Source: Brevundimonas sp. UBA7664 (GTDB lineage: Bacteria > Pseudomonadota > Alphaproteobacteria > Caulobacterales > Caulobacteraceae). From it: a stretch of DNA of 64,000 nt. Location of the stretch: positions 18,711 through 82,710 of the forward strand of contig NZ_DLHQ01000050.1 of the NCBI RefSeq assembly GCF_002483305.1. The letters are read 5' to 3'. A program made the translations under genes and the position numbers. Below, piece after piece: positions 46,119-64,000 of the stretch. The number at the start of each line of letters is the position of its first letter. Within the stretch, counting starts at the first letter, position 1. The notes below the pieces were generated by a model, which worked only from the letters and a program-made list of their open reading frames with translations, was not told the origin of the DNA and did no database searches.

Positions 46119-46153
46119 GCGGCTTTCGACTGGCCGGCGTTGACCTGTCAGCA
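46119..46153 (+). repeat. IS6-like right-end sequence (copy 1 of a direct repeat)
   Basis: GCGGCTTTCGACTGGCCGGCGTTGACCTGTCAGCA is 30/35 identical to 60376-60410, which follows an IS6 transposase remnant. Confidence 0.6.
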
Positions 46154-47098
46154 CCGTGCTGGATGTGTCGACAAGTGACCGGCCCGCCATGCTAGCCAAA
46201 GCGCCGCGGCACCCAATGTGGAGCAGATGGCGACCGCGGGTAGCGAGGCTTCTGGGCCGAACGCGCCGCCCGTAAGCCAATCGGGCAGACCGCTGCGGGC
46301 CGTGCTGCGAGACATCGCACTGCCGAAGTCGCCCCCTGATACCGCGGCGCCAAACAGGTAGCCTTGAGTGAAATTCCAGGCGGCATGAAAGCCGATCGAG
46401 ACCCAAAGCCGTCCAGTCAGTGCGTAGAATGCGGCCAGCATGATGCCGGCTTCAATCGCGACGCAGGCCGCTGTGAAGAGGGTCGCGCCAGGATTGCCGA
46501 TGTGTCCTGCCCCAAACAGCAGAGCCGAGACGATGAAGGCAGGCCAAGGGCCAAACCCCCGCCAGATCAGCCGCAGCAAGATCCCGCGAACCAGCACTTC
46601 CTCGAAGACCCCGGACTCAAGGGCCAGGCTGACGGCTCGCCAGGCCGGCGCCGGGCCCAGGAATTCGAAGTCATAGAGGCGAAAGCCGATCATGATCGCC
46701 ATGACCGCGGAAAAGGTCAGGGCCCCCAACAGCCCGCCCGCCAGCAGACCAAATGGCGCCGCCTTGAGAGCAAGCTCGCCGGGCGCCCGGTCTTCTCCGA
46801 GTCTCACCAAAAGGGCGTAGGCGCCCAGAATGATCAGACAGCCCAGAACATGGGCGACGAACTGGGTCGCCGGGTCGTCCGGCAAGACCTGCGAAAGGAA
46901 TTCCATGCTGGGCCCGAAGGCCAGGGCGACAGCCAGAATGAGCGCGAGCATCCAACCGACTGTCCGCGCCCAGAGGAACTTTCCGGGCCGCAAGACACGT
47001 CGGTTCCCCAGATCCACCGGGATGAACTGGTGGAGGATTCCTCGGCCTGTGACCGAGGGCGGTCGGCCGCTCATTCGCGAATTTTCATGGGCCATCAC
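46148..47098 (-). CDS. CPBP (CAAX protease/Abi) intramembrane glutamic endopeptidase
   Basis: VFEEVLVRG, LFGAGH, GFHAAWNF, LTGGAFGPEASL; multiple TM segments. Confidence 0.9.
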   Translation of the reverse strand: MMAHENSRMSGRPPSVTGRGILHQFIPVDLGNRRVLRPGKFLWARTVGWMLALILAVALAFGPSMEFLSQVLPDDPATQFVAHVLGCLIILGAYALLVRLGEDRAPGELALKAAPFGLLAGGLLGALTFSAVMAIMIGFRLYDFEFLGPAPAWRAVSLALESGVFEEVLVRGILLRLIWRGFGPWPAFIVSALLFGAGHIGNPGATLFTAACVAIEAGIMLAAFYALTGRLWVSIGFHAAWNFTQGYLFGAAVSGGDFGSAMSRSTARSGLPDWLTGGAFGPEASLPAVAICSTLGAAALWLAWRAGHLSTHPARC

Positions 47099-49796: not shown

Positions 49797-50705
49797 TTAT
49801 CGAACAGGGGTCTTCGGGGGGTGTTTGCTGCTCGGAGCTTGGCGTCCGACAAGCGGGTCCGCCAGGCTCGACGGTCCCTTCGGAAAGCTCCTCGACAAGA
49901 CGGCCGCGAAGACCAGGACGGCAATCAGGCCCGGCAGACTGGCCTCAAGGCCGAAGGCGCCGCCGGTCAGCCAGTCCATGCCGGCGGCCTGGACCGGGAC
50001 CAGCAGGCTCGGCTCGGCCGCGCCGCTCACTCCGAATCCCAACAGAACGCCCTGGGTGACATTGGCCGTGAAGTGCAGGCCGATCGGCAGGGCGAGGCTC
50101 CGCGTCCGGACATAGGCCATGCCGAAAAGAACCGAAGCGGCGAAGATGTTGACGCCGGCCCAGATCTTCGTGGCCCCCTCCATCCCGGGATTGCCAAGGT
50201 GGGTCAGGACGAAGAAGGCGCCGATCACCAACTGCGCCGGCCACAGCCCGATCCCGTCGATGAGGCGCTGGAACAGAACGCCCCGGAACAGCAACTCTTC
50301 GGCCAGGGCAACGCCGGCCATGAGCAGGATGGCCGACCCCAACGCGGAAGGGTTCGGCGGCGCGATCTCCCACTGGACCCAGCCCCCCAGCGTCAGGAAC
50401 AGGGCCGGCGCCGCCATCAGCAGACCACCAAGGATGGCGCCCAATCCGAACTGGGTGAGCCAGCGGACGTCGGCGCGACCGGTCACCTCGGAGACGGGTC
50501 TTCGGCGCAGGGCCTGGATCGCCACAGTCGCGAGAATGATGATGAGCGCCTGCTCGTAGATCGTGATCTCGCGGCCGAGATGGGCGGAAAGGACGATCGT
50601 CGGGGCCAGCAGCGCGGCAAGAAGAACCATAAAGGCCGCGACCCACCAGCCGTTCCGAAGTCGGTGATCGCGGTCGACAAAAGCTGCAGCAAACCATTTT
50701 GGCAT
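49797..50705 (-). CDS. CPBP (CAAX protease/Abi) intramembrane glutamic endopeptidase
   Basis: LAEELLFRG, FVLTHLGN, GLHFTANV, LTGGAFGLEASL; ATG 50705 with GGAGA RBS. Confidence 0.9.
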   Translation of the reverse strand: MPKWFAAAFVDRDHRLRNGWWVAAFMVLLAALLAPTIVLSAHLGREITIYEQALIIILATVAIQALRRRPVSEVTGRADVRWLTQFGLGAILGGLLMAAPALFLTLGGWVQWEIAPPNPSALGSAILLMAGVALAEELLFRGVLFQRLIDGIGLWPAQLVIGAFFVLTHLGNPGMEGATKIWAGVNIFAASVLFGMAYVRTRSLALPIGLHFTANVTQGVLLGFGVSGAAEPSLLVPVQAAGMDWLTGGAFGLEASLPGLIAVLVFAAVLSRSFPKGPSSLADPLVGRQAPSSKHPPKTPVR

Positions 50706-50749
50706 GAGGGGTCTCCCTGGCCGTTGTGGGCGGCGATAGGCCGCAAGCT

Positions 50750-52201
50750 TTACCATGAGCGCGCCGTCAGGATCGCTCCGGCACCGCGATCACCGTCTCG
50801 GAAACGGGAGAGGCTGACCAATCCGGCGATGAGAGCGAGAGCGGCGCCGATCCCCAGTCCGAGGCGGGGAGCCGCTTCGCCGGGCGTCAGTGTGAACAGC
50901 AGCGTCATGAGAACCGCCCCGGCGGTCTGCCCGGTCAGCCGGGCCGCGCCCTGCAAGCCGCCAGAGGCGGCGCTCCGTTCGAGCGGAGCCGACAGGAACA
51001 TGTTGCGATTGTTCGGGGTCTGGAACAGGCCGAAACCCATGCCGCACGCTGCCGCGAAGAAGAGCATCGGCCGGACGTCCTGCGCCAGGGGCCACAACGC
51101 AGCCACCATCAGTCCCAGGGCGAGTAAGGCCCCGCCGGCCGCGCACAGCCAGGCCGTCGGGAACCGGTCCGCGAGCCGGCCTGAGGCGATCGCGGTCACG
51201 GCGACGCTGAGCGGCCAGACCGTCATGTAGAACCCCGTGGCGGAGGCGCTCTGACCAAGTCCATGCTGGAGGTAGAAGGGCAGCGCCACCATGGCGGCGG
51301 CCTGGCCTGAGAAGCAGAAGACCGAAGCGATCACGGAGAGGCGCAGCGACCGTCCACGCAGAAGGTCGAGCGGGATGAGCGGGGCCGCCTTCGGCATCTC
51401 CCTGCGGAGGAGCAAAACAAGGCACGCCAGACCGGCCGCGGCCACGGCGCCCGCCATGAACGGGCGCGACGGCGAAAGCTGCGCGCCGATGAAGAGGCCA
51501 CCGAACATTCCGCCGCTGAGACCCATGCTGATCAGGTCGAGGCGATGGGAGCCAGCCGGCGTTCGGGGCAGCTGCCGGCAGGCAAGAAGGACGGCGACGC
51601 CCAGGGGAATATTGAGCGCATAGAGCCAGGGCCATTGAGCGTGGGAGAGAATCAGCGCGCCCACCCCGGGACCGGCCGATGAGGCTAGGGCGACCGTCAG
51701 CGCATTCCAGCCGATGGCCGCGCCCAGCCGCTGGGGAGCCACCGAAAATCGCAGCAGCGGAACCCCGAGCGCCATGATGGCGGCGCCCCCCAGCCCTTGC
51801 AGGGCCCGGCCCGCGACCAGCCAGGCGAGCGTTGGCGCAATCGCGCAAAACCCTGAGGCGAGCATGAACAGCAGGGCCCCGAGGGTGAAGACCGGGCGGT
51901 AGCCGAACCGCTCCCCCAGGGCCGCGCACGGCAGCAGGGCGACCAGCAGGGCCGTCTGATAGGCGGTGACGACGAGCACCGCCAGGGCCGGAGTGGCGCC
52001 GAGGGCGTTGGCGATCGTCGGCAGCGCCAGGTTCGTCATCCCGGCGTCCAGCACCACCAGGGTCATCGCGGTCAGAACAGCGGCGATCGCGACGAGGCGT
52101 ACGGGCGTGGGTGGTCTGCGCTTGGGCGCCGCGCGCCGTTCAGAACACCGCACCCGCATCGACCCGGCGGGACCCGCCGGATCCGGGTCCAGCGGCATCA
52201 T
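50750..52201 (-). CDS. MFS transporter, DHA2-type (14 TM)
   Basis: VLDAGMTNLALPTIA, LGERFGYRPVF, GRALQGLGGA, FQTPNNR. Confidence 0.9.
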   Translation of the reverse strand: MMPLDPDPAGPAGSMRVRCSERRAAPKRRPPTPVRLVAIAAVLTAMTLVVLDAGMTNLALPTIANALGATPALAVLVVTAYQTALLVALLPCAALGERFGYRPVFTLGALLFMLASGFCAIAPTLAWLVAGRALQGLGGAAIMALGVPLLRFSVAPQRLGAAIGWNALTVALASSAGPGVGALILSHAQWPWLYALNIPLGVAVLLACRQLPRTPAGSHRLDLISMGLSGGMFGGLFIGAQLSPSRPFMAGAVAAAGLACLVLLLRREMPKAAPLIPLDLLRGRSLRLSVIASVFCFSGQAAAMVALPFYLQHGLGQSASATGFYMTVWPLSVAVTAIASGRLADRFPTAWLCAAGGALLALGLMVAALWPLAQDVRPMLFFAAACGMGFGLFQTPNNRNMFLSAPLERSAASGGLQGAARLTGQTAGAVLMTLLFTLTPGEAAPRLGLGIGAALALIAGLVSLSRFRDGDRGAGAILTARSW

Positions 52202-53903: not shown

Positions 53904-54464
53904 CTATTTCAGGAAAACGAGCTCGAACAGGAAGGCGCCGAAGGTGCCGACCAGACCGGCCAGGAACGCGGCATAGGCGAACGAGAGATAGCGATATTTC
54001 TTGAACTGCAGCACCCGCCCGTTCTGGTAGAGATCGCGCGCCATGACCCTGTATGTCGCCTCTTCGGATCGGAGGGTGTCGATGATGTGGTCGATATAGT
54101 CGTCTTCCGGAATGCCGGAGAAGGCGCCGAAGAAGACCACATTGGTGTTCGGCCCGATCGTCGCGGGCGGCTTCATGATCTTCGGGCGCAGGGCCAGGAC
54201 CGAGAAGAGGGTCGCAAGAAACGAGAACGAAGCGAGGATCAGCAGGGGCACGGTGGCCCGGCTGGATGTGATCTCGTTGATGGCGAGGGTGAAGACCACG
54301 AAGGTCGCCCCCATCAGGATCGAGGCCTTGCTGTCGGCCATCTCCGACAGGGCGATATGGCCCGACTGGGCCGTGACGAGGAGGTTGTGGACCTCCTTGG
54401 GGAACTCGTAGTCGGGATGCCCGACGGGCGGGCGCGTGGAGACGGCGGACTTTTCCCTGGGCAT
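53904..54464 (-). CDS. Pycsar effector family (DUF5706/PycTM-like) membrane protein
   Basis: MADSKASILMG (ADxKA), two TM helices, LRP, NVVFFGAF, LYQNGRVLQFKKYRYLSFAY, then a C-terminal TM. GAGG RBS and an in-frame upstream stop fix the start. Confidence 0.8.
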   Translation of the reverse strand: MPREKSAVSTRPPVGHPDYEFPKEVHNLLVTAQSGHIALSEMADSKASILMGATFVVFTLAINEITSSRATVPLLILASFSFLATLFSVLALRPKIMKPPATIGPNTNVVFFGAFSGIPEDDYIDHIIDTLRSEEATYRVMARDLYQNGRVLQFKKYRYLSFAYAAFLAGLVGTFGAFLFELVFLK

Positions 54465-54616
54465 CGGCCGAACCTCGGGCAGCGGTTATCCTGAAGCGAC
54501 CGGCCCGGATACCCGAAGCGGTCTCCATGACGACCTTAGACGCGAACGCGGCCGGTTCACAACGCAGGTGGCCCCGACCCTGCTCCCGGGGCTGGAGAGC
54601 GTGGTCGGAGCTCGCC

Positions 54617-55432
54617 CTATTGGGCCCGGATTCGGCCGGTCCTGGCGTCCAGCGTGGCCAGAACGCGATGCTCGCCCGCCGTTCCGAAATGGCTGGTCAA
54701 CGGGCCGCCCGTCCACAGGTGCAAGGCGAAGCCCGGATCCTCCTCGACGATTCGCGGCCGATCGCGATCCGTCCCGCGCGACTCGTCCTCGAGGTCCAGC
54801 ACGACCTGCGGCGCGCAGGGCGGCGCGACGATCAGGGGGTGACCCGCGAACTGGGTGACGAGCGGACGGTGGAGATGCCCGGCGATCAGTCCGACGACCT
54901 GTGGCCGGGCCGCCAGCGCCGCCGCGAGACGTTCCGACCAGACGCCGTCGACGCCGACGTCCATCCAGGCGATCCCTGATTTCACGGGCGGATGGTGGAG
55001 GGCGATCAGCGTCGGCGTATCGGGCCGCGCCTCCAGGCGTGTGGTCAGCCACGCCGCGCGCCGATCGCAGAAGGCTCCGCCATGGCGGCCGGTCTCCACC
55101 GTGTCCAGCACCAGGATACGAAGGCCTCCGGACTGGGCCTCGTACTGGACGAAGCCGTCGCCATCGGGCTCCACGCCCAACCCTTCGATGAAGACCTCGC
55201 GCAGGTCGTGATTGCCCATCACCGGCAGGATCGGGGCCGAAAGGGGGGCGAGAAGATCCTTCAGCCGACGGTAGCAGGATGCGTCGCCACCCTCCGTCAG
55301 ATCACCGGTGGCCAGCACCACATCCGGGCCGATCTCCACAAGCCGGGCCACCACCGTGCGCAGACGCGCCACATTGAGCTCAGAGACTGCTCTCCCGCCG
55401 ATATGCAGATCCGTGATCTGAGCGATCAGCAT
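54617..55432 (-). CDS. CpdA/Icc-like metallophosphoesterase (cyclic nucleotide phosphodiesterase)
   Basis: MLIAQITDLHI, TGDLTE, GNHD, HHPP, GHLH calcineurin-like motifs. Confidence 0.88.
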   Translation of the reverse strand: MLIAQITDLHIGGRAVSELNVARLRTVVARLVEIGPDVVLATGDLTEGGDASCYRRLKDLLAPLSAPILPVMGNHDLREVFIEGLGVEPDGDGFVQYEAQSGGLRILVLDTVETGRHGGAFCDRRAAWLTTRLEARPDTPTLIALHHPPVKSGIAWMDVGVDGVWSERLAAALAARPQVVGLIAGHLHRPLVTQFAGHPLIVAPPCAPQVVLDLEDESRGTDRDRPRIVEEDPGFALHLWTGGPLTSHFGTAGEHRVLATLDARTGRIRAQ

Positions 55433-55618
55433 CGTCGCGAAGTCCCGTCCATGGCGCGCCGAGGTCCTTGATGTCAGAAGCGCCGCGGCCAAGCTAGGCC
55501 CCGCGCGCTATTGGGCTGTCCAACCCCGCCATGGCTGCATTAGGCTGGCCACGTCGTCGCTGCTTGGCTTGCGACTGGAAAGCGTGACCGCCGGACCGGG
55601 CAAGCAGCTGGAGCGACC

Positions 55619-57859
55619 ATGTCTATCAGGGCGGCGCTGGGGAAGTGGCGGCACGGCGTATCGCCGCCGATGCTCGGCATAGCGGCGCTGTTCGCAATCA
55701 CCATCCTGCAGGTGATCGGCGTCCCCATCGCGGACCGCATCGGCCTGGCCGTCTTCGACGCGTATCAGCGCGCCGCGCCGAGACCCTATGAGGACGCGCC
55801 GGTCCGTATCGTCGACATCGACGACGAGTCCATCCGGCGCCTGGGTCAATGGCCGTGGCCCCGCGAAGAGATTGCGGTCCTGACCGACCGGCTGACCGAG
55901 GCGGGGGCCGCCGTCATCGCCTACGACATCGTCTTCTCCGAACCTGACCGGACAGCCCCGGGCCGCCTCGCGGAACGGCTGCGCACGAGCGGCGACCGCG
56001 AGGCGGCCGCCGTCATCGCCCGCCTGCCTGACCCCGATGAAACCCTGGCGCGCTCCCTGGAGGCGTCGCCGGCGGTGCTGGGCTATTTCCTGACCCATGA
56101 CGGTCACGCGCAGGCGCCGTCGCCCAAGGCCGGAATCGCGATCGCGGGCTCTTCGCCGACGAGCGTACCCGCCTTCTCCCATGCCATCATGCCCTTGCCG
56201 GGACTGTTGGAAAGCGCGTCGGGCGCGGGGTTTGTCAGCACCATCGGCGACGCTGACGGCATTGTGCGGCGCGCCCCCCTGATCGCGCGTCAGGGCGATG
56301 AATTCGTACCCAGCCTTTCGCTCGAATCCCTTCGTCTGGCGCAACAGGCCGGTTCCATCATGGTCAGAACGAACAACGCCAGCGGCCAGCGCGGAGGGGA
56401 TGGCGGGGACGTGGTGGCGGTACGGGTCGGACAGTTCGAGATCCCGACCACGGCCCAGGGTGAGATGTGGCTGCGCTTCACGGGCCCCCAGCCCGCTCGC
56501 GTGGTGCCGGCCTGGCGCGTGATGGAGGCCCGGATGACGCCGGCGGAGCTTGAAGCCGCCTTCGCGGGCCGGATCGTCTTCGTCGGAGCGGGGGCAATCG
56601 GACTGCGCGACCTGGTGGCGACGCCGATCGAGGAGCGCACCCCGGGCGTCACCGTCCATGCCCAGGTCGTGGAGCAGGCGATCCTCGGCCGCTTCCTGGT
56701 TCGGCCCGACTGGGCTCTCGGGCTCGAGCGGGCCCTGATGGTGTTGGCGGGCCTTGCCCTGGCGCTCGCCCTGCCCTGGATCGGCGCCCGATGGAGCGCT
56801 GTGGCGGGTCTGGTCGCGGTCGCCGCCATGATCGGGCTGAGCTGGTCGGCCTTTCGCGAGATGGATTTCCTCGTCGATCCGACCTGGCCGATCATGGGCC
56901 TGGTCGCCGTCTACGGGGTGGTGACCTTCGCCACCTATTTCCGCGAGGAGCGGCGGCGGGCCTTCATTCACGGAGCGTTCGGTCGGTACCTGACGCCGGA
57001 GATGGTCCGACGCATAGCCGCGGATCCCGGCGCTCTCGAACTGGGCGGGCAGGAACGCGAGATGACCGTGCTCTTCTGCGACATCCGCGGCTTCTCGCGT
57101 ATCGCGGAGCAGATGACGCCGCAGGCGACCATCCGCTTCCTGATCGCCTTCCTGACCCCGATGTGCGACCTCCTGCTCGAACGGAAGGCCACCATCGACA
57201 AGTTCATCGGGGACGCCATCCTCGCCTTCTGGAACGCCCCGCTCGACGATCCGGACCAGCACGTTAACGCCGCGCGGGGCGCCCTGGGCATGGTGGCCGC
57301 GCTCAAGGTGCTCAACGAGACCATGCCGGGGCGCTCCGTCGACCCGTGGCCGGGCGAGGTGAAGATCGGGATCGGCATGAGCACCGGTCCCTGCTGCGTC
57401 GGCAACATGGGCGCCGCCCGGCGGCTGTCCTATTCGCTGATCGGGGACACGGTGAACCTCGCGTCCCGGATCGAGGGCCTGACCAAGACCTACGGTGTTC
57501 CGATCATGATAGGCGAGGCCCTGCACCGGTCCATTCCGACCTTCGCGACGCTGGAGATAGACCGGGTGAAGGTCCTCGGCCGCGACGCGCCTGAGACCTT
57601 GTACGCCCTGCTGGGTGACGAGAGCCTCGCCGGGGATAATGACTACATGGCTTTCGCAGAAGGCCATGCGGCGCTGCTCGACGACTACCGCGCCCGGAAC
57701 TGGCGCGCGGCCCTGCGGCGGATCAAGCAACTGGCGGCGGCCGCGGAGCGGTTCGGGGTGGGGGAGACCTACGCCCTGATCGCCGCGCGTATCGCCGCAT
57801 TCAGGAAAACCGATCCTGGCCCCCAGTGGGACGGGGTGTTCCTGGCGACTGAGAAGTAG
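55619..57859 (+). CDS. CHASE2-domain class III adenylate/guanylate cyclase
   Basis: N-terminal TM; CHASE2 (IVDIDDESIRRLGQWPWPR, IAYDIVFSEPDR, DADGIVRR, PGVTVHAQ); three TMs; cyclase LFCDIRGFS, IDKFIGDA, VGNMG...YSLIGDTVNLASRIEG. Confidence 0.93.
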   Translation: MSIRAALGKWRHGVSPPMLGIAALFAITILQVIGVPIADRIGLAVFDAYQRAAPRPYEDAPVRIVDIDDESIRRLGQWPWPREEIAVLTDRLTEAGAAVIAYDIVFSEPDRTAPGRLAERLRTSGDREAAAVIARLPDPDETLARSLEASPAVLGYFLTHDGHAQAPSPKAGIAIAGSSPTSVPAFSHAIMPLPGLLESASGAGFVSTIGDADGIVRRAPLIARQGDEFVPSLSLESLRLAQQAGSIMVRTNNASGQRGGDGGDVVAVRVGQFEIPTTAQGEMWLRFTGPQPARVVPAWRVMEARMTPAELEAAFAGRIVFVGAGAIGLRDLVATPIEERTPGVTVHAQVVEQAILGRFLVRPDWALGLERALMVLAGLALALALPWIGARWSAVAGLVAVAAMIGLSWSAFREMDFLVDPTWPIMGLVAVYGVVTFATYFREERRRAFIHGAFGRYLTPEMVRRIAADPGALELGGQEREMTVLFCDIRGFSRIAEQMTPQATIRFLIAFLTPMCDLLLERKATIDKFIGDAILAFWNAPLDDPDQHVNAARGALGMVAALKVLNETMPGRSVDPWPGEVKIGIGMSTGPCCVGNMGAARRLSYSLIGDTVNLASRIEGLTKTYGVPIMIGEALHRSIPTFATLEIDRVKVLGRDAPETLYALLGDESLAGDNDYMAFAEGHAALLDDYRARNWRAALRRIKQLAAAAERFGVGETYALIAARIAAFRKTDPGPQWDGVFLATEK

Positions 57860-57865
57860 CGTGGC

Positions 57866-58684
57866 CTAGGGGGTGCCAGGCGATTGCCCATATCGCCCGC
57901 GCTCGCCGAATTCCTCGTGGATCAGAGGACTGACGATCAGGGGATTCAGCTCCGGCGCCGTCGGGCCGCGCCGCGGATCGCCGAGCAGGGCGGCCAGTTC
58001 GGCAAGGCCGTGGTCCGAGATCAGGAAGGGTCCGATCGGGGCCTGGCCCGTCGCCGGCACGAAGACCGCGTATCCGACAGACTCCACCGGCACCGTGACG
58101 CCCCCCGACGTGACGTCGATAGCGCCCGCCGGCTCGTCCGGCGCGCCGCCCGGGCCGCGCAGCAGGATCAGCGAGGCGCTTTCGGGATCGGATCCTGTCA
58201 CGCCCGGCACGCCGAGTTCGAAGCGGGCGATGTTGATGGCGTCCTCGCCGACGACCCCCTCGACGATGGTGCCGCGAACGCCGATCGCCGCCGCCGGCGT
58301 GCGGATGGCGGTCCCGCCCGGCGTGGCCCGGGTGGGCCTGCCCGACATGAACCGGAACGAGCCCCTCGCGACCTCGGCTCCCACGGCGCTGGCGGATCGG
58401 TCGGGGTCGTACACGAACCGGTCGATCACCAGTCGGGCGTTGGCGCCGACCTGGAAGCTGGTGCCGTCCCGCAGCAGGATCTGCACGTGACTGGCGCGGC
58501 CGGTGTTGACCGGATTGCCCAGCGATACGCGTTCGCGAACGCGCGCCTGGTGAATTTGCGGCTCCGCCTGGGTGGCCATGCGCACGTCGTTGACGACGAC
58601 CGCGTTGGCGCCGACGGTCTGGGCGACCGCAGGCGTTCCCACGCCCACCAGCGCAAGCGCGAGGCAGGTTCCGATGCGGGTCAT
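57866..58684 (-). CDS. Exported FecR-domain protein
   Basis: Signal peptide; VNTGRASHVQILLRDGTSFQVGANARLVIDRFVYDP...GSFRFMSG...TPAAAIGVRGT; no cytoplasmic anti-sigma segment. Confidence 0.85.
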   Translation of the reverse strand: MTRIGTCLALALVGVGTPAVAQTVGANAVVVNDVRMATQAEPQIHQARVRERVSLGNPVNTGRASHVQILLRDGTSFQVGANARLVIDRFVYDPDRSASAVGAEVARGSFRFMSGRPTRATPGGTAIRTPAAAIGVRGTIVEGVVGEDAINIARFELGVPGVTGSDPESASLILLRGPGGAPDEPAGAIDVTSGGVTVPVESVGYAVFVPATGQAPIGPFLISDHGLAELAALLGDPRRGPTAPELNPLIVSPLIHEEFGERGRYGQSPGTP

Positions 58685-59961
58685 TGCGGACTCCCTGACC
58701 GTCCAAACCGGTAGACCATGCGCACCTCAGCGCCGAAGCTGTTGTGATCGTGCAGCAGGCTGGCGCCGTCGTACCAGCGCGCGGAGTGGCTGGCGGCGGC
58801 CTCCAGGAACATACCGTGGCGATCGAGCGGCACGCCGACCACTGCCCGCACATAGGCCCGTATCTCGGTTGCACCGCCCCCCAGGGCGCCCTCGCGAAAG
58901 TCGATATATCTCAGCATGGCGGAACCGCCGATGTAGGCGCCATTGTCGGAGATGGGCGTTTGCGTGGCCGCGAACACCCGGCCGCCGAAGTAGCCCAGAT
59001 CCGTCTGTTCGGCCTCCTTCGCCTCCACCGCGATGCCCGCGGTCCAGGCGCGATCGGCTCCCGATATGTCGCGATAGCTGAGCATGACGTCGTAGCGCAT
59101 GCCGTCCCGGAGCGAGGCTGCGGCCGGCCCCAGATAGTCCTGATCGACCGCCTCGAGCCTGACGGTCCAGCGCCCGGTCGGGCTCGCGGTGTCGCCGAGT
59201 TCCGCCTGGAGCCCAAATTCGGTGACCAGTCCGTCGCCGGCCAGCCGCGCATGTCGCGCCATCAGGCCGGTCGCCAGGCGCTGATCCTCCCCCCTGAGGC
59301 GGAAGTCGTAGCCGAGCCGCGCTGAGCCGGTCAGGTAGTCCGCGTCGGGCCCGGAGATGTCCGTCCGGGTCTCGAAGGCGGCGCCGGCGTAGCCCTGGCC
59401 CGACAGACGGGATGCGAAACGCGCGTCCAGCGCGCCCGACGCCGTGATCGCCAGCCCTTCCTCGGAGGGCGCGGGGAAGCCCGGGATCTCGATCTGGGTC
59501 GTCAACGCCCCGAGCGCGTCGGTCTCGTATCCCAGGCCGAGCGTCAGGACGCCCGTGACGCCGTCGCCGCGTGTGGCGAACGGAGTCAGGGGAGCCGGAG
59601 CGCAGGCCTCGCGCGCCTCCGCCCAGCCGGTCGCGGTCGCATTGCGCACGTTCGCCAGCTGATAGGCGCCCCGGCGGTAGTCAGCGAGACGGCACAGGAC
59701 CGTCCCGTAGTAGAGCCGCACCTCGTCCGAACCGGCGTCGGGCCGCAGCAGGAGCGAACGCTCAAGCGTCGCGGCGGCTCCGGTCAGGTTCCCGGCCCCG
59801 ACCTGCCGGCGCGCCGCCGCCAAAGTTCCGGCGTCGCTTTCCGTCGCGTCGATGAGGGCGTCGACTTCTGCCTCGCCGGCTTCCTGGGCGGCGGCGGCGC
59901 CGCAGCCCAAGGCCGCCATGCCCGCGACGATGCCGACCAGACGCCAACGGACGTGTTTCAC
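58681..59961 (-). CDS. Outer-membrane protein: N-terminal TPR-like helices + beta-barrel (DUF560/Slam-like)
   Basis: Signal peptide; GAAATLERSLLLRP...VRLYYGTVLCRL TPR-like segment; alternating strands (LTLGLGYE, ARLGYDF, YDVMLSY) ending VRMVYRF. GTG 59961 fits the RBS. Confidence 0.65.
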   Translation of the reverse strand: MKHVRWRLVGIVAGMAALGCGAAAAQEAGEAEVDALIDATESDAGTLAAARRQVGAGNLTGAAATLERSLLLRPDAGSDEVRLYYGTVLCRLADYRRGAYQLANVRNATATGWAEAREACAPAPLTPFATRGDGVTGVLTLGLGYETDALGALTTQIEIPGFPAPSEEGLAITASGALDARFASRLSGQGYAGAAFETRTDISGPDADYLTGSARLGYDFRLRGEDQRLATGLMARHARLAGDGLVTEFGLQAELGDTASPTGRWTVRLEAVDQDYLGPAAASLRDGMRYDVMLSYRDISGADRAWTAGIAVEAKEAEQTDLGYFGGRVFAATQTPISDNGAYIGGSAMLRYIDFREGALGGGATEIRAYVRAVVGVPLDRHGMFLEAAASHSARWYDGASLLHDHNSFGAEVRMVYRFGRSGSPQ

Positions 59962-60072
59962 GACCAAGCCCCCTCAGGATCCTGATCGCAATCTATGTCA
60001 GTCGCTGGCGGCGTCCAGTGGTTTCGTAACATCGTTCGGTTAACCGGAATGCCCGGAAGCCATGGGCACAAT

Positions 60073-60413
60073 TTCGGCGGAACCCTCAAACGCCTCGGAT
60101 GGCTCTCGCAATCCCGCAAAAATCAGTGACATCAAGCGGCGGTGGCGGCGCTGTGAGGCAAATGCTGAAAGGTCTCCGGCAAATTCGGCGCAAGCCGCTG
60201 TCGGGGATGATCAAATCCCACCCCTTAGTCCGAAGATTTCTCACCACCCACGCGGCGATCTACAACACCTTCAACATCCAACGTCACCTGATCAGCAGAC
60301 CCCCTCTTCGCCGTTTCCGCGCCGAAGCTGCCGCGGCCTGGGCGAAGGCCGTTGCCTGATTTCAGACGGGGTAGGGCGGCGTTCGACTCGGCGGAGTTAA
60401 CCTGTCAGCAGCC
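60073..60413 (+). mobile_element. IS6-family transposase remnant with right end
   Basis: RRFLTTHAAIYNTFNIQRHLISRPPLRRFRAEAAAAW matches IS6 transposase C-termini. The upstream part is frameshifted or degenerate. It is followed by GTTAACCTGTCAGCAGCC, an IR-like end. Confidence 0.75.
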
Positions 60414-60683: not shown

Positions 60684-61667
60684 ATGCGTGACATCCTTCG
60701 TTTCTCGAGTTCGGCGATCCCGCCCGCTCGTCGATTTGAGGCCTATCGTGAACTACATACCCACCGTTCAGAAATCCTGCCGGGGCGTGAAGCGTTTAAG
60801 GCCGAGGTCGTCGCCTGGCGTCTGGGCGACATGCTGGTGTTCGACCGTCGTCTGTCAGGGGTCGTGCATTCAAGGCAGGAACGCGTCAACGGCGATGGCG
60901 TGGATCGTTTCGTGGCGACGCTGGTGCGGTCCGGGCGACTGAGCGGACAGGCGAGGACTGGTTTCGAAGTCGAGCCAGGGCAGATCATCATGCTCGACAC
61001 CCGTCGCGCGGTCATCATCGAGCATCACGCTGCGCATATCGTCACCGTCAGTGTGGCCCGCGGCGTGATCGAGGCTGCCTTCGATCGGACGGACGGTTTG
61101 CATGGCCAGATTCTGACCGCCCCTGCGAACGGCTTCCTGGCTGATTTCATGGTCATGCTGGCCGAGCGAACCGCCGACATGGCCCCTCTGAAGGTCGCTC
61201 CGGTGAGCCGCGCCTTTCTGGATATCCTGTCGACGGCGGGTAGCGTCACAGCGTCGCAGGGGCTGGAACTGAGGCGGCTGGAGCTGGCTCGCCGACGGGC
61301 TGTTGACCGCTATATCGATGACAACCTGTCGGACCGGAAACTGTCGGTCGGAATGATCAGCCGGGCCACCGGCGTGTCGCGCTCGGCACTGTATCGAATG
61401 TTCGCCGAGCAGGGGGGAGTTGGCCGCCATGTGAAGGCGCAGCGGCTGGCCGCAGTCAGGAAGGCGCTGGATAATGGCGGCACAGAGCCTCTGGCGGCTC
61501 TCGCCCATACCCTCGGTTTTGCCAGCGACAGTCAGATGAGTCGTCAGTTCAGCCTCGCCTATGACACGACGCCCGGCGCCTATCGCCGGGCCTGGGCAGA
61601 GCGCGGGGCCGATGACCCTACCCAAGGCCGCGATCAACGGGCGGCCTGGATGAGGGAATTGAACTGA
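60684..61667 (+). CDS. AraC family transcriptional regulator
   Basis: RRFEAYRE N-terminal ligand-binding domain; LSVGMISRATGVSRSALYRMF...LGFASDSQMSRQFSLAYDTTPGAYR. Confidence 0.9.
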   Translation: MRDILRFSSSAIPPARRFEAYRELHTHRSEILPGREAFKAEVVAWRLGDMLVFDRRLSGVVHSRQERVNGDGVDRFVATLVRSGRLSGQARTGFEVEPGQIIMLDTRRAVIIEHHAAHIVTVSVARGVIEAAFDRTDGLHGQILTAPANGFLADFMVMLAERTADMAPLKVAPVSRAFLDILSTAGSVTASQGLELRRLELARRRAVDRYIDDNLSDRKLSVGMISRATGVSRSALYRMFAEQGGVGRHVKAQRLAAVRKALDNGGTEPLAALAHTLGFASDSQMSRQFSLAYDTTPGAYRRAWAERGADDPTQGRDQRAAWMRELN

Positions 61668-61821: not shown

Positions 61822-62133
61822 CTGGCGGTGCATCTCGGGGGTTGGTTCATGTCGATGCGATTTTGGGAGCCTGGCGGCGGGTCATTGCCGCGAGCGCACG
61901 TCGCAACGAAACGCCGGCCTAGAACCGACCGTCACCCGTACTTCTATTGCGGGACGCAGAGCGGCGCTTTCAGCTGCATCCTCGCGCCCGCGGCAGCGGT
62001 GGGGCTGCACGCACAGGCACTCGACTAACGGCCCTGCAGATAACGGCGTGTTCGGACAACCGGCGCCGTCCGTATTTCAACGACTCCAACAGCGCCGTCA
62101 GAACGCTGTGACGCACAAACAATGGGGACTTTC

Positions 62134-64000
62134 ATGATCATCGGTACACGCGGGCTTTCCAGACTTCAGCTGCACGGTGCGCGCGCGCCGCGTTCGCGTT
62201 CGATGCTGGCGGGGCTGCTGACGGGTACGGCGCTGGGCTGTTCGTTGATGGTCGCAATGGCGACGCCCGCACTGGCCGATAACGAATGCGGTCCGGCAGG
62301 AGCCACGGTGGTGTGTCCCGCCAACACCTACAACACCGGTATCCGCTATGCGAACCTGGCCGAGGCGCTGGCGTTGAACGTCCCCGTGGGCGCGTTCGTC
62401 AACACGACGGCGAACTACACTGCAGGTATCGAGGTCCAGGGCGGCAACTTCGACGTCTCCATCTTTCAGCGCGGGCCGATCCGCACATCAGGCCTGGACG
62501 CCCCGGGCATCTACGTTGAGACCAATGCGGGGAACGTAACGATCGACGCGGATGACGTCGCGACCACAGGCGATTACTCGACGACGTCCAACTTCGGTGC
62601 CGAAGGCATCTTTGTTTACAGCAACACCGGCGATGTATCCGTCACGGCCCGCAATGTCAGCGTCGACGGGTTCGCCACCAGCGCGCTCGCGGTGGTGGTC
62701 AACAATGCGGATATTGTCTTTGACATCGACGCCATAACTTCCACGTCTACAAACTCGGCCACCGTCTTTGCGCAGACCCAGGGTTCGGGCGACGTCACCA
62801 TCACAAGCGGATCGATCGACAGCCGTAACCAGGGGATCGCTGTCTTCGGCGCGGGCGCCGGCACGGTGATCGTCACCAGCGACTCGATCAGTATCGCCAA
62901 CAGTGATGCCCAAGGCCACTTCGGCATCATCATGGGCGTCAACGCCAAGGACGTGATCGTCGATAGCGGCTCCATCAGCACGACGGGCCTTGCGGCGCGC
63001 GGGATAGGCATCACCGCAGCCAGCGTCGACATCACCAGCGACAGTATCGTCACCACCGGCGGGCCGACGACGACCCGTGCCTCGGACGGCATTGCGGTGA
63101 TCGCATTGACGGGCGACGTCACCATCGACAGCGGCACAATCAGCACCAGTGGCCTGGCAGCGCGGGGCGTGGGCGCGACCGCCAATCTGGGCTCTGTCGA
63201 TATCACCAGCGGTTCGATCACCACGGCAGGCAACGGCGCCCTCGGGATCCAGGCTTTCGGGTCAACCGGGGTAACCATCGACAGCGGATCCATCTCGACC
63301 TCGGGTACGACGAACACGGGTGGCGGTATGACTCGCCAGGCCGATGCGATCTGGGTCACGGGTGGCGCAGGTGCGAACTTCTCCATCACCAGCGACAGCA
63401 TCACCACGACGGGGGTGGATGCGCGGGGTATCGTGGTCGATGACGACGGCGTGGTTGGCTATGGCGTCAGCAACGCGGCGGCCGGAACGGGCGCTCTGGT
63501 CATCGACAGTGGCGGGATCACCACCGGGGGCTTCGGGGCGCGTGGTATGGCGATCAGCCATGCGGGGGCGGTGGATATCGTCTCCGGCACGATCGCCACC
63601 GAGGGCGACAGCGCCAGCGGCATCACCCTGTTCGCCTCGGCGGACACGGTCATCAACAGCGGGACGATCACCACCGAAGGCCAGGATGCGTTCGGCATCG
63701 AGGTGCGGGGCGCGACCGGCGACGTGACCATCACGTCGGACAGCGTGACCACGCTGGGCGACTATTCGAACGGCCTGCTGGTCTTCGCCGACGATGGCGC
63801 GGTCTCGATCACCAGCGGGTCGGTTTCGACGTCGGGCGACGGCGCCACCGGCATTTCGGTGGTCACCAACAGCGGCGCAGTGACGATCGATTCCGGCTTC
63901 GTCTCGACGTCCGGCGACTACGTCTATGATGAGCGCGGCGCGGGCGAGGATCGCTTTGCCGAAGGCATCTCGGTCTTCACCGACACGGGCGCCATCTCGA
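62134..64000 (+). CDS. Large secreted repeat-rich protein (autotransporter/adhesin-like beta-helical passenger), 3' end runs off the window
   Basis: Manual translation is open from ATG 62134 to the window end. Extended signal peptide (...LLTGTALGCSLMVAMATPALA), CGPAGATVVC, then many about 22-25 aa repeats VTI(D/T)SG(S/T)I(S/T)TxGxxAxGIxV. Confidence 0.85.
   Translation, partial: MIIGTRGLSRLQLHGARAPRSRSMLAGLLTGTALGCSLMVAMATPALADNECGPAGATVVCPANTYNTGIRYANLAEALALNVPVGAFVNTTANYTAGIEVQGGNFDVSIFQRGPIRTSGLDAPGIYVETNAGNVTIDADDVATTGDYSTTSNFGAEGIFVYSNTGDVSVTARNVSVDGFATSALAVVVNNADIVFDIDAITSTSTNSATVFAQTQGSGDVTITSGSIDSRNQGIAVFGAGAGTVIVTSDSISIANSDAQGHFGIIMGVNAKDVIVDSGSISTTGLAARGIGITAASVDITSDSIVTTGGPTTTRASDGIAVIALTGDVTIDSGTISTSGLAARGVGATANLGSVDITSGSITTAGNGALGIQAFGSTGVTIDSGSISTSGTTNTGGGMTRQADAIWVTGGAGANFSITSDSITTTGVDARGIVVDDDGVVGYGVSNAAAGTGALVIDSGGITTGGFGARGMAISHAGAVDIVSGTIATEGDSASGITLFASADTVINSGTITTEGQDAFGIEVRGATGDVTITSDSVTTLGDYSNGLLVFADDGAVSITSGSVSTSGDGATGISVVTNSGAVTIDSGFVSTSGDYVYDERGAGEDRFAEGISVFTDTGAIS

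What the first reader, a model, noticed from the sequence alone, without database searches (positions are those of the whole stretch)
53904..59961. Candidate undescribed cyclic-nucleotide system: envelope-sensing CHASE2 cyclase + FecR + OM barrel wired to a phosphodiesterase and a Pycsar-type membrane effector
Seen: five contiguous genes with no unrelated gene between them, <-PycTM-like <-CpdA-like PDE | CHASE2 cyclase-> <-FecR <-TPR/barrel. They provide synthesis, degradation and a putative receptor/effector of a cyclic nucleotide, plus two exported partners. No CRP/Clr-type receptor is in the window. Known: DUF5706/PycTM proteins are cell-killing membrane effectors of Pycsar anti-phage systems, which use soluble pyrimidine cyclases and no PDE; CHASE2 cyclases often lie beside signal-peptide FecR and barrel proteins. 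Inference: an outside-in pathway in which an outer-membrane event (phage adsorption, predator or neighbour contact, adhesin engagement) is relayed barrel -> FecR -> CHASE2, raises cNMP and triggers the effector, with the PDE setting a threshold. It sits in an IS6-bracketed accessory block, as defence loci often do.
Basis: partly seen in the sequence, partly recalled or inferred. Interest (0 to 1): 0.9.

Follow-up and report, generated by a model that had tools for sequence, protein, structure and literature searches.

The report
Surface-sensing cAMP module with PycTM output
Five neighbouring genes form a recurring accessory unit: an outer-membrane sensor and a membrane adenylate cyclase like the rhizobial NsrA-CyaK pathway, plus a phosphodiesterase and a small membrane protein of the family that kills phage-infected cells in Pycsar defence. 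That protein is probably the unit's cyclic-nucleotide-responsive output, and nothing here shows a role in phage defence.

Summary
All five genes are present and intact: a PycTM-family three-helix membrane protein, a class III phosphodiesterase (PDE), a CHASE2 adenylate cyclase, a periplasmic FecR protein and a TPR plus 14-strand outer-membrane barrel.

The sensing half is not new. Barrel plus FecR equal a split form of Sinorhizobium meliloti NsrA (FecR-TPR-barrel). The cyclase carries the CyaK catalytic signature. The PDE is SpdA/Rv0805-like.

- The same five-gene set recurs in at least five other distinct loci, including two Brevundimonas.
- The PDE->PycTM pair also sits beside a CHAT/CHASE2 cyclase and a STAND cyclase.
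- A distant PF18967 gene flanks nsrA-cyaK in six of six rhizobial replicons checked.
- This cyclase is the only class III cyclase in the genome.

Evidence against a defence role:
- Most close PycTM relatives are lone, vertically inherited genes beside spt/obg in Sphingomonadales.
- PycTM evolves slowly (dN/dS 0.10-0.15).
- Genus relatives couple the same input module to a CNBD-oxidoreductase/cytochrome cluster.
- The rhizobial counterpart is a host-signal pathway.

Verdict: a new variant joining two known kinds (NsrA-CyaK-type signalling and a PycTM-type output). It is most likely an outside-in cAMP pathway with a membrane output.

The parts
53904..54464 (-). PycTM-family (PF18967/DUF5706, pJV1-SpdB3 type) inner-membrane protein of 186 aa with three TM helices. 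It has a conserved N-terminal cytoplasmic motif GHPDYEFPKEVHNLL. It is the probable cNMP-responsive output.
   Evidence: Pfam 83 bits. PADLOC PycTM E 9e-14. AF2 model pLDDT 85.7, all-alpha, helices 24-66, 72-92, 120-131 and 134-185. 1352 homologues. dN/dS 0.10-0.15.
54617..55432 (-). Class III (calcineurin-like) cyclic-nucleotide phosphodiesterase, immediately upstream of PycTM on the same strand. The ORF is open to 55492, but homologues start at M21 (55432).
   Evidence: Metallophos 65 bits. SpdA 122 bits and CpdA 79 bits, both below their cut-offs. Closest solved structures are Rv0805 and GpdQ, with the DxH, GD, GNHD, HH and GHxH motifs present.
55433..55618 (.). 186-bp divergent intergenic region between the PDE-PycTM operon and the cyclase gene.
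   Evidence: ORF coordinates. The consensus promoter scan found nothing informative.
55619..57859 (+). Receptor adenylate cyclase with a periplasmic CHASE2 domain, TM segments and a class III catalytic domain. It is the only class III cyclase in the genome.
   Evidence: CHASE2 203 bits and Guanylate_cyc 68 bits. Metal Asp residues in LFCDIRG and FIGD. Lys in TIDKFIGD plus Ser in YSLIGD and NLASR, the same signature as CyaK. PF00211 has a single hit in G000.
57866..58684 (-). Secreted FecR-domain protein of 272 aa, with no anti-sigma or TM part.
   Evidence: FecR 36 bits. Signal peptide MTRIGTCLALALVGVGTPAVA-Q read from the sequence. Co-conserved with the barrel and cyclase.
58681..59967 (-). 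Outer-membrane protein of 428 aa: signal peptide, TPR-like helical periplasmic domain and a 14-strand beta-barrel. It overlaps the FecR gene by 4 bp. Together the two genes equal a split NsrA.
   Evidence: AF2 pLDDT 77.6. Foldseek matches CymA, OmpG and BcsC, E 1e-11 to 1e-9. A family HMM hits the genes upstream of FecR-CHASE2 cyclase in Shinella and Paracoccus. Only 22 homologues were found.
60230..60410 (+). IS6-type transposase C-terminal remnant (ends 60359) followed by a 35-bp terminal-repeat-like sequence at 60376-60410.
   Evidence: Sequence read. blastn finds an 86% repeat of 46119-46153.
46119..46153 (+). Second, solo copy of the 35-bp repeat. It marks the left edge of the roughly 14-kb block that carries the module.
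   Evidence: blastn. No transposase ORF nearby.

Best explanation
The five genes are a self-contained, horizontally acquired outside-in cyclic-AMP module.

Proposed mechanism:
1. The outer-membrane TPR-barrel and the periplasmic FecR protein together match the single-chain NsrA receptor of S. meliloti. They perceive a surface or envelope cue and pass it to the periplasmic CHASE2 domain of the inner-membrane cyclase (inferred by analogy with NsrA-CyaK).
2. The cyclase makes 3',5'-cAMP (predicted from its catalytic residues).
3. The PDE-PycTM operon, transcribed divergently, supplies the degrading enzyme and the output. The output is a three-TM protein whose characterised relatives assemble into cNMP-activated membrane pores. 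I infer that it changes membrane permeability or ion flux when cAMP rises, and that the PDE limits the amplitude and duration of the signal.
4. I consider a regulated physiological membrane response, or a conditional growth arrest, more likely than dedicated anti-phage suicide.

Shown here: gene identities, intact catalytic motifs, the barrel fold, recurrence of the module, and that this is the genome's only class III cyclase.

Inferred: the cue, the nucleotide made, cNMP binding by PycTM, and the PDE substrate.
For: - Identities.
- Architecture shared with the characterised system. On S. meliloti pSymB, a PF18967 gene lies divergent from nsrA (1190 aa: FecR, TPR and a barrel at aa 600-1200), followed by cyaK.
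- That adjacency is kept in six of six further replicons, down to 50% identity.
- The cyaD1 locus carries a FecR gene and spdA (PMC4222275).
- The five-gene set recurs in L021, L028, L029, L117 and L118, in different chromosomal contexts.
- The PDE->PycTM pair stays adjacent beside other cyclase types: STAND/AAA_16 in L018; CHAT plus CHASE2 in L025, L030 and L031; and in the order PycTM->PDE->cyclase in L056. This places PycTM downstream of the nucleotide rather than in the sensor.
- PDE relatives at about 50% identity sit in operons with a CNBD protein. In this subfamily the PDE therefore travels with cNMP receptors.
- The same input module has interchangeable receptor partners: Clr in S. meliloti, a CNBD-oxidoreductase in genus relatives, and CNBD-patatin in Paracoccus.
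- This is the only PF00211 cyclase in the genome.
- PycTM is under purifying selection.
Against: - No canonical CNBD is visible in the 186-aa all-helical PycTM model, and nucleotide binding is untested.
- Only 5 of 76 species-level loci of this PycTM subfamily have a cyclase or PDE within 10 kb. None of 10 loci from an unbiased alphaproteobacterial sample do.
- The linked copies are nested among lone spt/obg-context genes.
- SpdA, the best-named PDE relative, does not cleave 3',5'-cAMP (PMC4222275).
- The genome has five Crp/Fnr-type ORFs and a core CNBD-patatin that could be the real receptors.
- Genus relatives run the same barrel/FecR/cyclase/PDE set without any PycTM.
Confidence: 0.5

Rival explanations
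1. Anti-phage or anti-predator abortive system. Adsorption or contact at the outer membrane activates the cyclase, cAMP opens a lethal PycTM pore, and the PDE prevents accidental firing. This would be a purine, surface-sensing relative of Pycsar/Pucsar.
For: - Characterised PF18967 proteins are cNMP-activated abortive-infection effectors. PucTM forms a hexameric cylinder and responds to a purine nucleotide.
- PADLOC PycTM models match over the full length.
- The module is accessory, flanked by an IS remnant, and found in varied contexts.
- Sensors are swapped, and include CHAT and STAND types that are common in conflict systems.
- Paracoccus pairs the same sensor trio with CNBD-patatin, a lytic-type effector.
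Against: - No defence genes lie nearby.
- The homologous rhizobial pathway senses host-derived protein and tolerates high cAMP (PMC7529298, PMC5498481), although a PF18967 gene sits at that locus.
- The nearest PycTM relatives are vertically inherited lone genes.
- dN/dS is 0.10-0.15, not the fast evolution reported for immune clades.
- Genus relatives use the same input for a redox cluster.
- No known Pycsar cyclase is periplasm-sensing.
Confidence: 0.2
2. PycTM is a housekeeping membrane protein with no nucleotide link. The cyclase signals through Crp/Fnr-type regulators or the core CNBD-patatin encoded elsewhere, and the PDE-PycTM adjacency is inherited synteny in one mobile lineage.
For: - 71 of 76 subfamily loci lack a cyclase and PDE, as do all 10 sampled alphaproteobacterial loci.
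- The spt/ACP/obg synteny is conserved across Sphingomonadales.
- CNBD proteins exist elsewhere in the genome.
- G005 and G023 lack PycTM.
Against: - The pair persists beside three unrelated cyclase architectures and in two gene orders.
- A very divergent PF18967 branch independently flanks nsrA-cyaK.
- The CNBD-patatin is core in 37 of 41 relatives whether or not a cyclase is present.
Confidence: 0.2
3. PycTM is a membrane partner of the enzymes rather than an output. It would anchor or regulate the soluble PDE at the membrane, or sit in the cyclase complex, to shape a local cAMP pool.
For: - PDE->PycTM is the tightest adjacency: always the same strand, with a 4-bp overlap in L025 and a 16-bp gap in L118.
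- The PDE has no TM segment.
Against: - The rhizobial PF18967 gene has no adjacent PDE.
- PDE homologues function without PycTM in G005, G023 and L119-L121.
- Characterised family members are effectors.
Confidence: 0.1

Closest known systems
S. meliloti NsrA-CyaK / CyaD1-SpdA-Clr cAMP cascade (autoregulation of infection)
   Same: - An outer-membrane barrel with TPR and FecR elements sits upstream of a CHASE2 class III adenylate cyclase with the same catalytic signature.
- A class III PDE of the SpdA type is present at a cyclase locus.
- A PF18967 gene lies next to the sensor and cyclase.
   Different: - Here the receptor is split into two genes (barrel 428 aa, FecR 272 aa) and is not detectably similar in sequence to NsrA.
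- Here the PDE and the PycTM gene form an operon next to the cyclase.
- No Clr is linked.
- The organism is a small-genome, non-rhizobial alphaproteobacterium, and this is its only class III cyclase.
Pycsar / Pucsar TM systems (PycC or PucC cyclase plus a PycTM/PucTM 3TM effector)
   Same: A class III cyclase is genomically linked to a PF18967 three-TM protein. Pucsar shows that the family can respond to a purine cNMP.
   Different: - The cyclase is a CHASE2 receptor enzyme of the physiological type, not a soluble PycC/PucC.
- The effector is co-transcribed with a PDE, not with the cyclase.
- A host-encoded PDE and two exported sensor proteins are part of the unit.
- No defence phenotype or context is known.
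CHASE2 sensors paired with secreted FecR proteins (e.g. the Burkholderia LysM-FecR plus CHASE2 histidine kinase 'BiofilmReg' operon, PMC5192318)
   Same: A periplasmic FecR-domain protein is encoded beside a CHASE2 receptor.
   Different: The output domain there is a histidine kinase. There is no barrel, PDE or PycTM.
Rv0805 / CpdA / GpdQ class III phosphodiesterases
   Same: Same fold and the full set of metal-binding motifs.
   Different: Substrate untested. The closest curated family, SpdA, prefers 2',3'-cNMP (PMC4222275).

Membership tests
Pycsar system | Effector of the PycTM (PF18967, 3TM) or PycTIR type | tested here: met
   PF18967 83 bits against a cut-off of 27. PADLOC PycTM E 9e-14 over residues 42-174. 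Three-TM all-helical model.
Pycsar system | Soluble PycC-clade cyclase making cCMP or cUMP | tested here: not met
   CHASE2 receptor architecture. Lys/Ser purine signature identical to the adenylate cyclase CyaK. The best solved relatives are adenylate and guanylate cyclases. The product itself cannot be tested here.
Pycsar system | Cyclase and effector form a two-gene operon | tested here: not met
   PycTM is co-oriented with the PDE and the cyclase is divergent. The same layout is seen in L021, L117 and L118.
Pycsar system | Protects against phage by abortive infection | not testable with these tools
   No experiment was possible.
NsrA-CyaK type outside-in cAMP pathway | Inner-membrane CHASE2 plus class III adenylate cyclase | tested here: met
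   tblastn gives 37-41% identity to CyaK and to a CyaD-like cyclase.
NsrA-CyaK type outside-in cAMP pathway | Outer-membrane receptor with FecR, TPR and beta-barrel parts encoded next to the cyclase | tested here: inconclusive
   All three parts are present but on two proteins. No significant sequence match to NsrA itself. The equivalence rests on architecture.
NsrA-CyaK type outside-in cAMP pathway | Crp-like cAMP receptor (Clr) as output | tested here: not met
   No PF00027 hit in the window. Five Crp/Fnr-type ORFs lie elsewhere, with unknown ligands.
SpdA (NF050112) phosphodiesterase | Score above the equivalog cut-off | tested here: not met
   121.7 bits against 400. It is a homologue, not an equivalog.
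Class III (calcineurin-like) cNMP phosphodiesterase | Metallophos fold with an intact metal-binding motif set | tested here: met
   (alignment to Rv0805).

The most novel reading that the evidence does not exclude
A surface-triggered cyclic-purine immune or contact-response system. An outer-membrane receptor detects phage adsorption, predator contact or neighbour contact. A CHASE2 cyclase raises cAMP. A PycTM pore collapses the membrane. A dedicated host PDE acts as a safety catch, in the way ring nucleases do in type III CRISPR. The module exchanges sensors (NsrA-like, CHAT, STAND) like other defence systems. This would extend Pycsar-like signalling to extracellular sensing.
Probability: 0.17. 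Interest if true: 0.85.

Novelty: new variant of a known kind. Interest (0 to 1): 0.6.

Why it matters
PycTM-family proteins are known only as phage-defence effectors, and CHASE2/NsrA-type cyclases only as regulators that act through Crp-like factors. A conserved unit that joins the two, with its own phosphodiesterase, suggests one of two things. Either the 3TM family has a signalling role outside immunity, or envelope sensing can drive a membrane effector.

The hypothesis is directly testable. The rhizobial nsrA-cyaK locus carries an unstudied PF18967 neighbour in a genetically tractable model. The window's organism offers a minimal case: one cyclase, one PDE and one candidate receptor.

Tried and rejected
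- tblastn of the barrel protein against plasmids found nothing. BLASTP of the barrel or FecR against NsrA was not significant.
- PycTM had no sequence match and no fold match (best E 0.13) in the PDB. The PucTM structure is apparently not yet in the copy.
- An IS26-type inverted-repeat pattern search gave chance-level hits. The repeat finder at 25 nt or longer missed the 35-bp repeat.
- The promoter and terminator scan was uninformative.
- Garnerone 2018 and Burroughs 2015 are not held. Searches for DUF5706 and SMb20774 returned no papers.
- Single-query tblastn missed the STAND cyclase in L018. I replaced it with iterated HMMs.
- I considered the core CNBD-patatin as the dedicated receptor and rejected it. 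It is present in 37 of 41 relatives regardless of whether a cyclase is present.
- I recalled NsrA as 438 aa, which was wrong. PMC7529298 and the pSymB annotation give about 1190 aa.


Full report
**Observation.**

The five ORFs exist as described. Pfam assigns them as follows.
- 53904-54464(-): PycTM, 83 bits against a cut-off of 27.
- 54617-55492(-): Metallophos.
- 55619-57859(+): CHASE2 plus Guanylate_cyc.
- 57866-58684(-): FecR.
- 58681-59967(-): no hit.

PADLOC's PycTM models match the first protein over its full length. NCBIfam's best hits for the PDE are SpdA (122 bits, cut-off 400) and CpdA, so it is a homologue of both and an equivalog of neither. Its solved relatives are Rv0805 and GpdQ, and every metal-binding motif is present. 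Homologues begin at M21, so the gene probably spans 54617-55432.

The 428-aa protein folds, at pLDDT 77.6, into a signal peptide, a helical TPR-like domain and 14 beta-strands. It matches the barrels CymA, OmpG and BcsC. The PycTM model (pLDDT 85.7) is all-helical with three membrane helices and has no solved counterpart.

**Cyclase chemistry.**

The catalytic domain has both metal aspartates, Lys in TIDKFIGD, Ser in YSLIGD and NLASR. This is the same signature as the experimentally established adenylate cyclase CyaK. I therefore predict 3',5'-cAMP. It is the only PF00211 gene in the 2.9-Mb genome.

**The sensing half is a known kind.**

In S. meliloti the CHASE2 cyclases CyaD1, CyaD2 and CyaK respond to plant signals through the outer-membrane protein NsrA. 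The cyaD1 locus also carries a FecR-domain gene (smc02177) and the PDE spdA.

The pSymB record shows nsrA as a 1190-aa protein with FecR and TPR domains, and PMC7529298 places its barrel at aa 600-1200. It overlaps the start of cyaK. The window's barrel and FecR genes are therefore a split architectural equivalent, although no sequence similarity to NsrA is detectable. The barrel family itself recurs upstream of FecR and a CHASE2 cyclase in Shinella and Paracoccus plasmids.

**The PycTM link recurs.**

- Close PycTM homologues (66-91% identity) always have the PDE immediately upstream on the same strand and a class III cyclase beside it.
- The full five-gene set appears in L021, L028 and L029 (both Brevundimonas), L117 and L118, in different chromosomal contexts.
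- A zinc-ribbon/cyclase/AAA_16 STAND protein replaces the sensor in L018.
- CHAT, then a CHASE2 cyclase, then a 238-aa ORF, then PDE and PycTM occur in L025, L030 and L031.
- The order is PycTM, PDE, then CHASE2 cyclase in L056.
- Independently, a PF18967 gene too divergent for BLASTP to detect (Pfam 46 bits) lies divergent from nsrA-cyaK. That adjacency holds in all six further Sinorhizobium and Rhizobium replicons I could cross-check, down to 50% identity.

Because the pair survives the replacement of a periplasmic sensor cyclase by a soluble STAND cyclase, PycTM most likely acts downstream of the nucleotide.

**The PDE travels with receptors.**

PDE homologues at about 50% identity sit in operons that encode a Pyr_redox/2xCNBD/4Fe-4S protein and multihaem cytochromes. 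In two genomes of the window's own genus, that cluster holds barrel, FecR, CHASE2 cyclase and PDE, without PycTM. Paracoccus pAMI5 places a CNBD-patatin gene next to the same sensor trio.

The input module thus combines with interchangeable cNMP receptors. In the window the receptor position is occupied by PycTM.

**Evidence against a defence reading.**

- Only 5 of 76 species-level loci of this PycTM subfamily have a cyclase or PDE within 10 kb.
- About 38-48 Sphingomonadales loci carry the gene alone between serine palmitoyltransferase/ACP and an SDR gene/obgE, often with a tandem paralogue.
- In the tree, the nucleotide-linked copies are nested inside that clade.
- PF18967 occurs in 30 of 151 Sphingomonadales and 11 of 401 Alphaproteobacteria sampled. 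None of the ten fetched loci of the Alphaproteobacteria sample has a cyclase.
- PycTM is under stronger purifying selection (dN/dS 0.10-0.15) than the PDE (0.26-0.36).
- The rhizobial homologue is a host-signal pathway in which raised cAMP is not reported as lethal (PMC5498481, PMC7529298).
- SpdA cleaves 2',3'- but not 3',5'-cAMP, so the PDE substrate here is open.
- The genome also encodes five Crp/Fnr-type ORFs and a CNBD-patatin. The latter is core in 37 of 41 relatives and does not track the cyclase.

**Mobility.**

PycTM is absent from all 40 relatives and the cyclase from 22 of 24 congeners. A 35-bp direct repeat at 46119-46153 and 60376-60410 brackets a 14-kb block. The right-hand copy follows an IS6-type transposase remnant. 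No intact transposase is present.

**Conclusion.**

The most likely mechanism is an NsrA-CyaK-type outside-in cAMP pathway whose local output is the PycTM-family membrane protein, buffered by the PDE (confidence 0.5). The rivals are a defence or abortive role (0.2), a passenger gene (0.2) and an enzyme-partner role (0.1).

Earlier scan notes on PycTM beside NsrA-CyaK, beside spt-ACP, and in a Dehalococcoidales cyclase/PDE cluster were read after my own analyses. The first two agree with what I found. The third is an untested lead that the cyclase-PDE-PycTM triad may recur with a PDE of a different fold.

Noticed in passing
L027-L080 (e.g. L058:10001-10561, Sphingomonas rhizophila): PF18967/PycTM homologues at 40-72% identity sit as a lone gene between serine palmitoyltransferase-ACP and an SDR epimerase-like gene/obgE across Sphingomonadales. 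Thirteen loci carry a tandem paralogue. The family may have a housekeeping or lipid-related membrane role.
   Followed up: partly
L123:1-20000 (G005) and L122 (G023), same genus as the window: The barrel/FecR/CHASE2 cyclase/PDE set is embedded in a cluster of other genes. These are a Pyr_redox+2xCNBD+4Fe-4S protein (855 aa), an FHA-multihaem cytochrome, a 1308-aa LVIVD multihaem cytochrome and an HbpS-like protein. This may be a cAMP-regulated extracellular electron-transfer or redox system.
   Followed up: partly
L106:224-8124 (Paracoccus aminophilus pAMI5): A CNBD-patatin phospholipase gene lies divergent from a TPR-barrel, FecR and CHASE2-cyclase operon.
   Followed up: no
L105:1-14091 (Shinella sp. 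H4-D48 p1): The same barrel/FecR/CHASE2-cyclase trio sits inside an NHLP bacteriocin export cluster (C39 peptidase, ABC exporters).
   Followed up: no
L018:3672-6818: The STAND (zinc-ribbon/cyclase/AAA_16) cyclase next to the PycTM most similar to the window's (91%) lacks the Lys/Ser purine signature (HVGSRVGD, NEVVGN). Its product may differ.
   Followed up: no
window 62122-63999 (runs off the end): A large ORF with no Pfam hit contains several families of degenerate 35-48-nt direct repeats. It is preceded by an AraC-type regulator at 60684-61667 and looks like a repeat-rich secreted or adhesin-like protein.
   Followed up: no
window 46148-47098(-) and 49797-50756(-): Two Rce1-like CAAX protease paralogues lie inside the same IS-remnant-bracketed block, together with a YtkA-like protein, an AraC regulator, an MFS transporter and a LysR regulator.
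   Followed up: no
G000:C15:18970-20934: A CNBD-patatin gene is core to the genus and order (37 of 41 genomes), although most of those genomes lack a homologue of the window's cyclase. Its PBC reads HTA instead of R[ST]A, so its ligand is unclear.
   Followed up: partly
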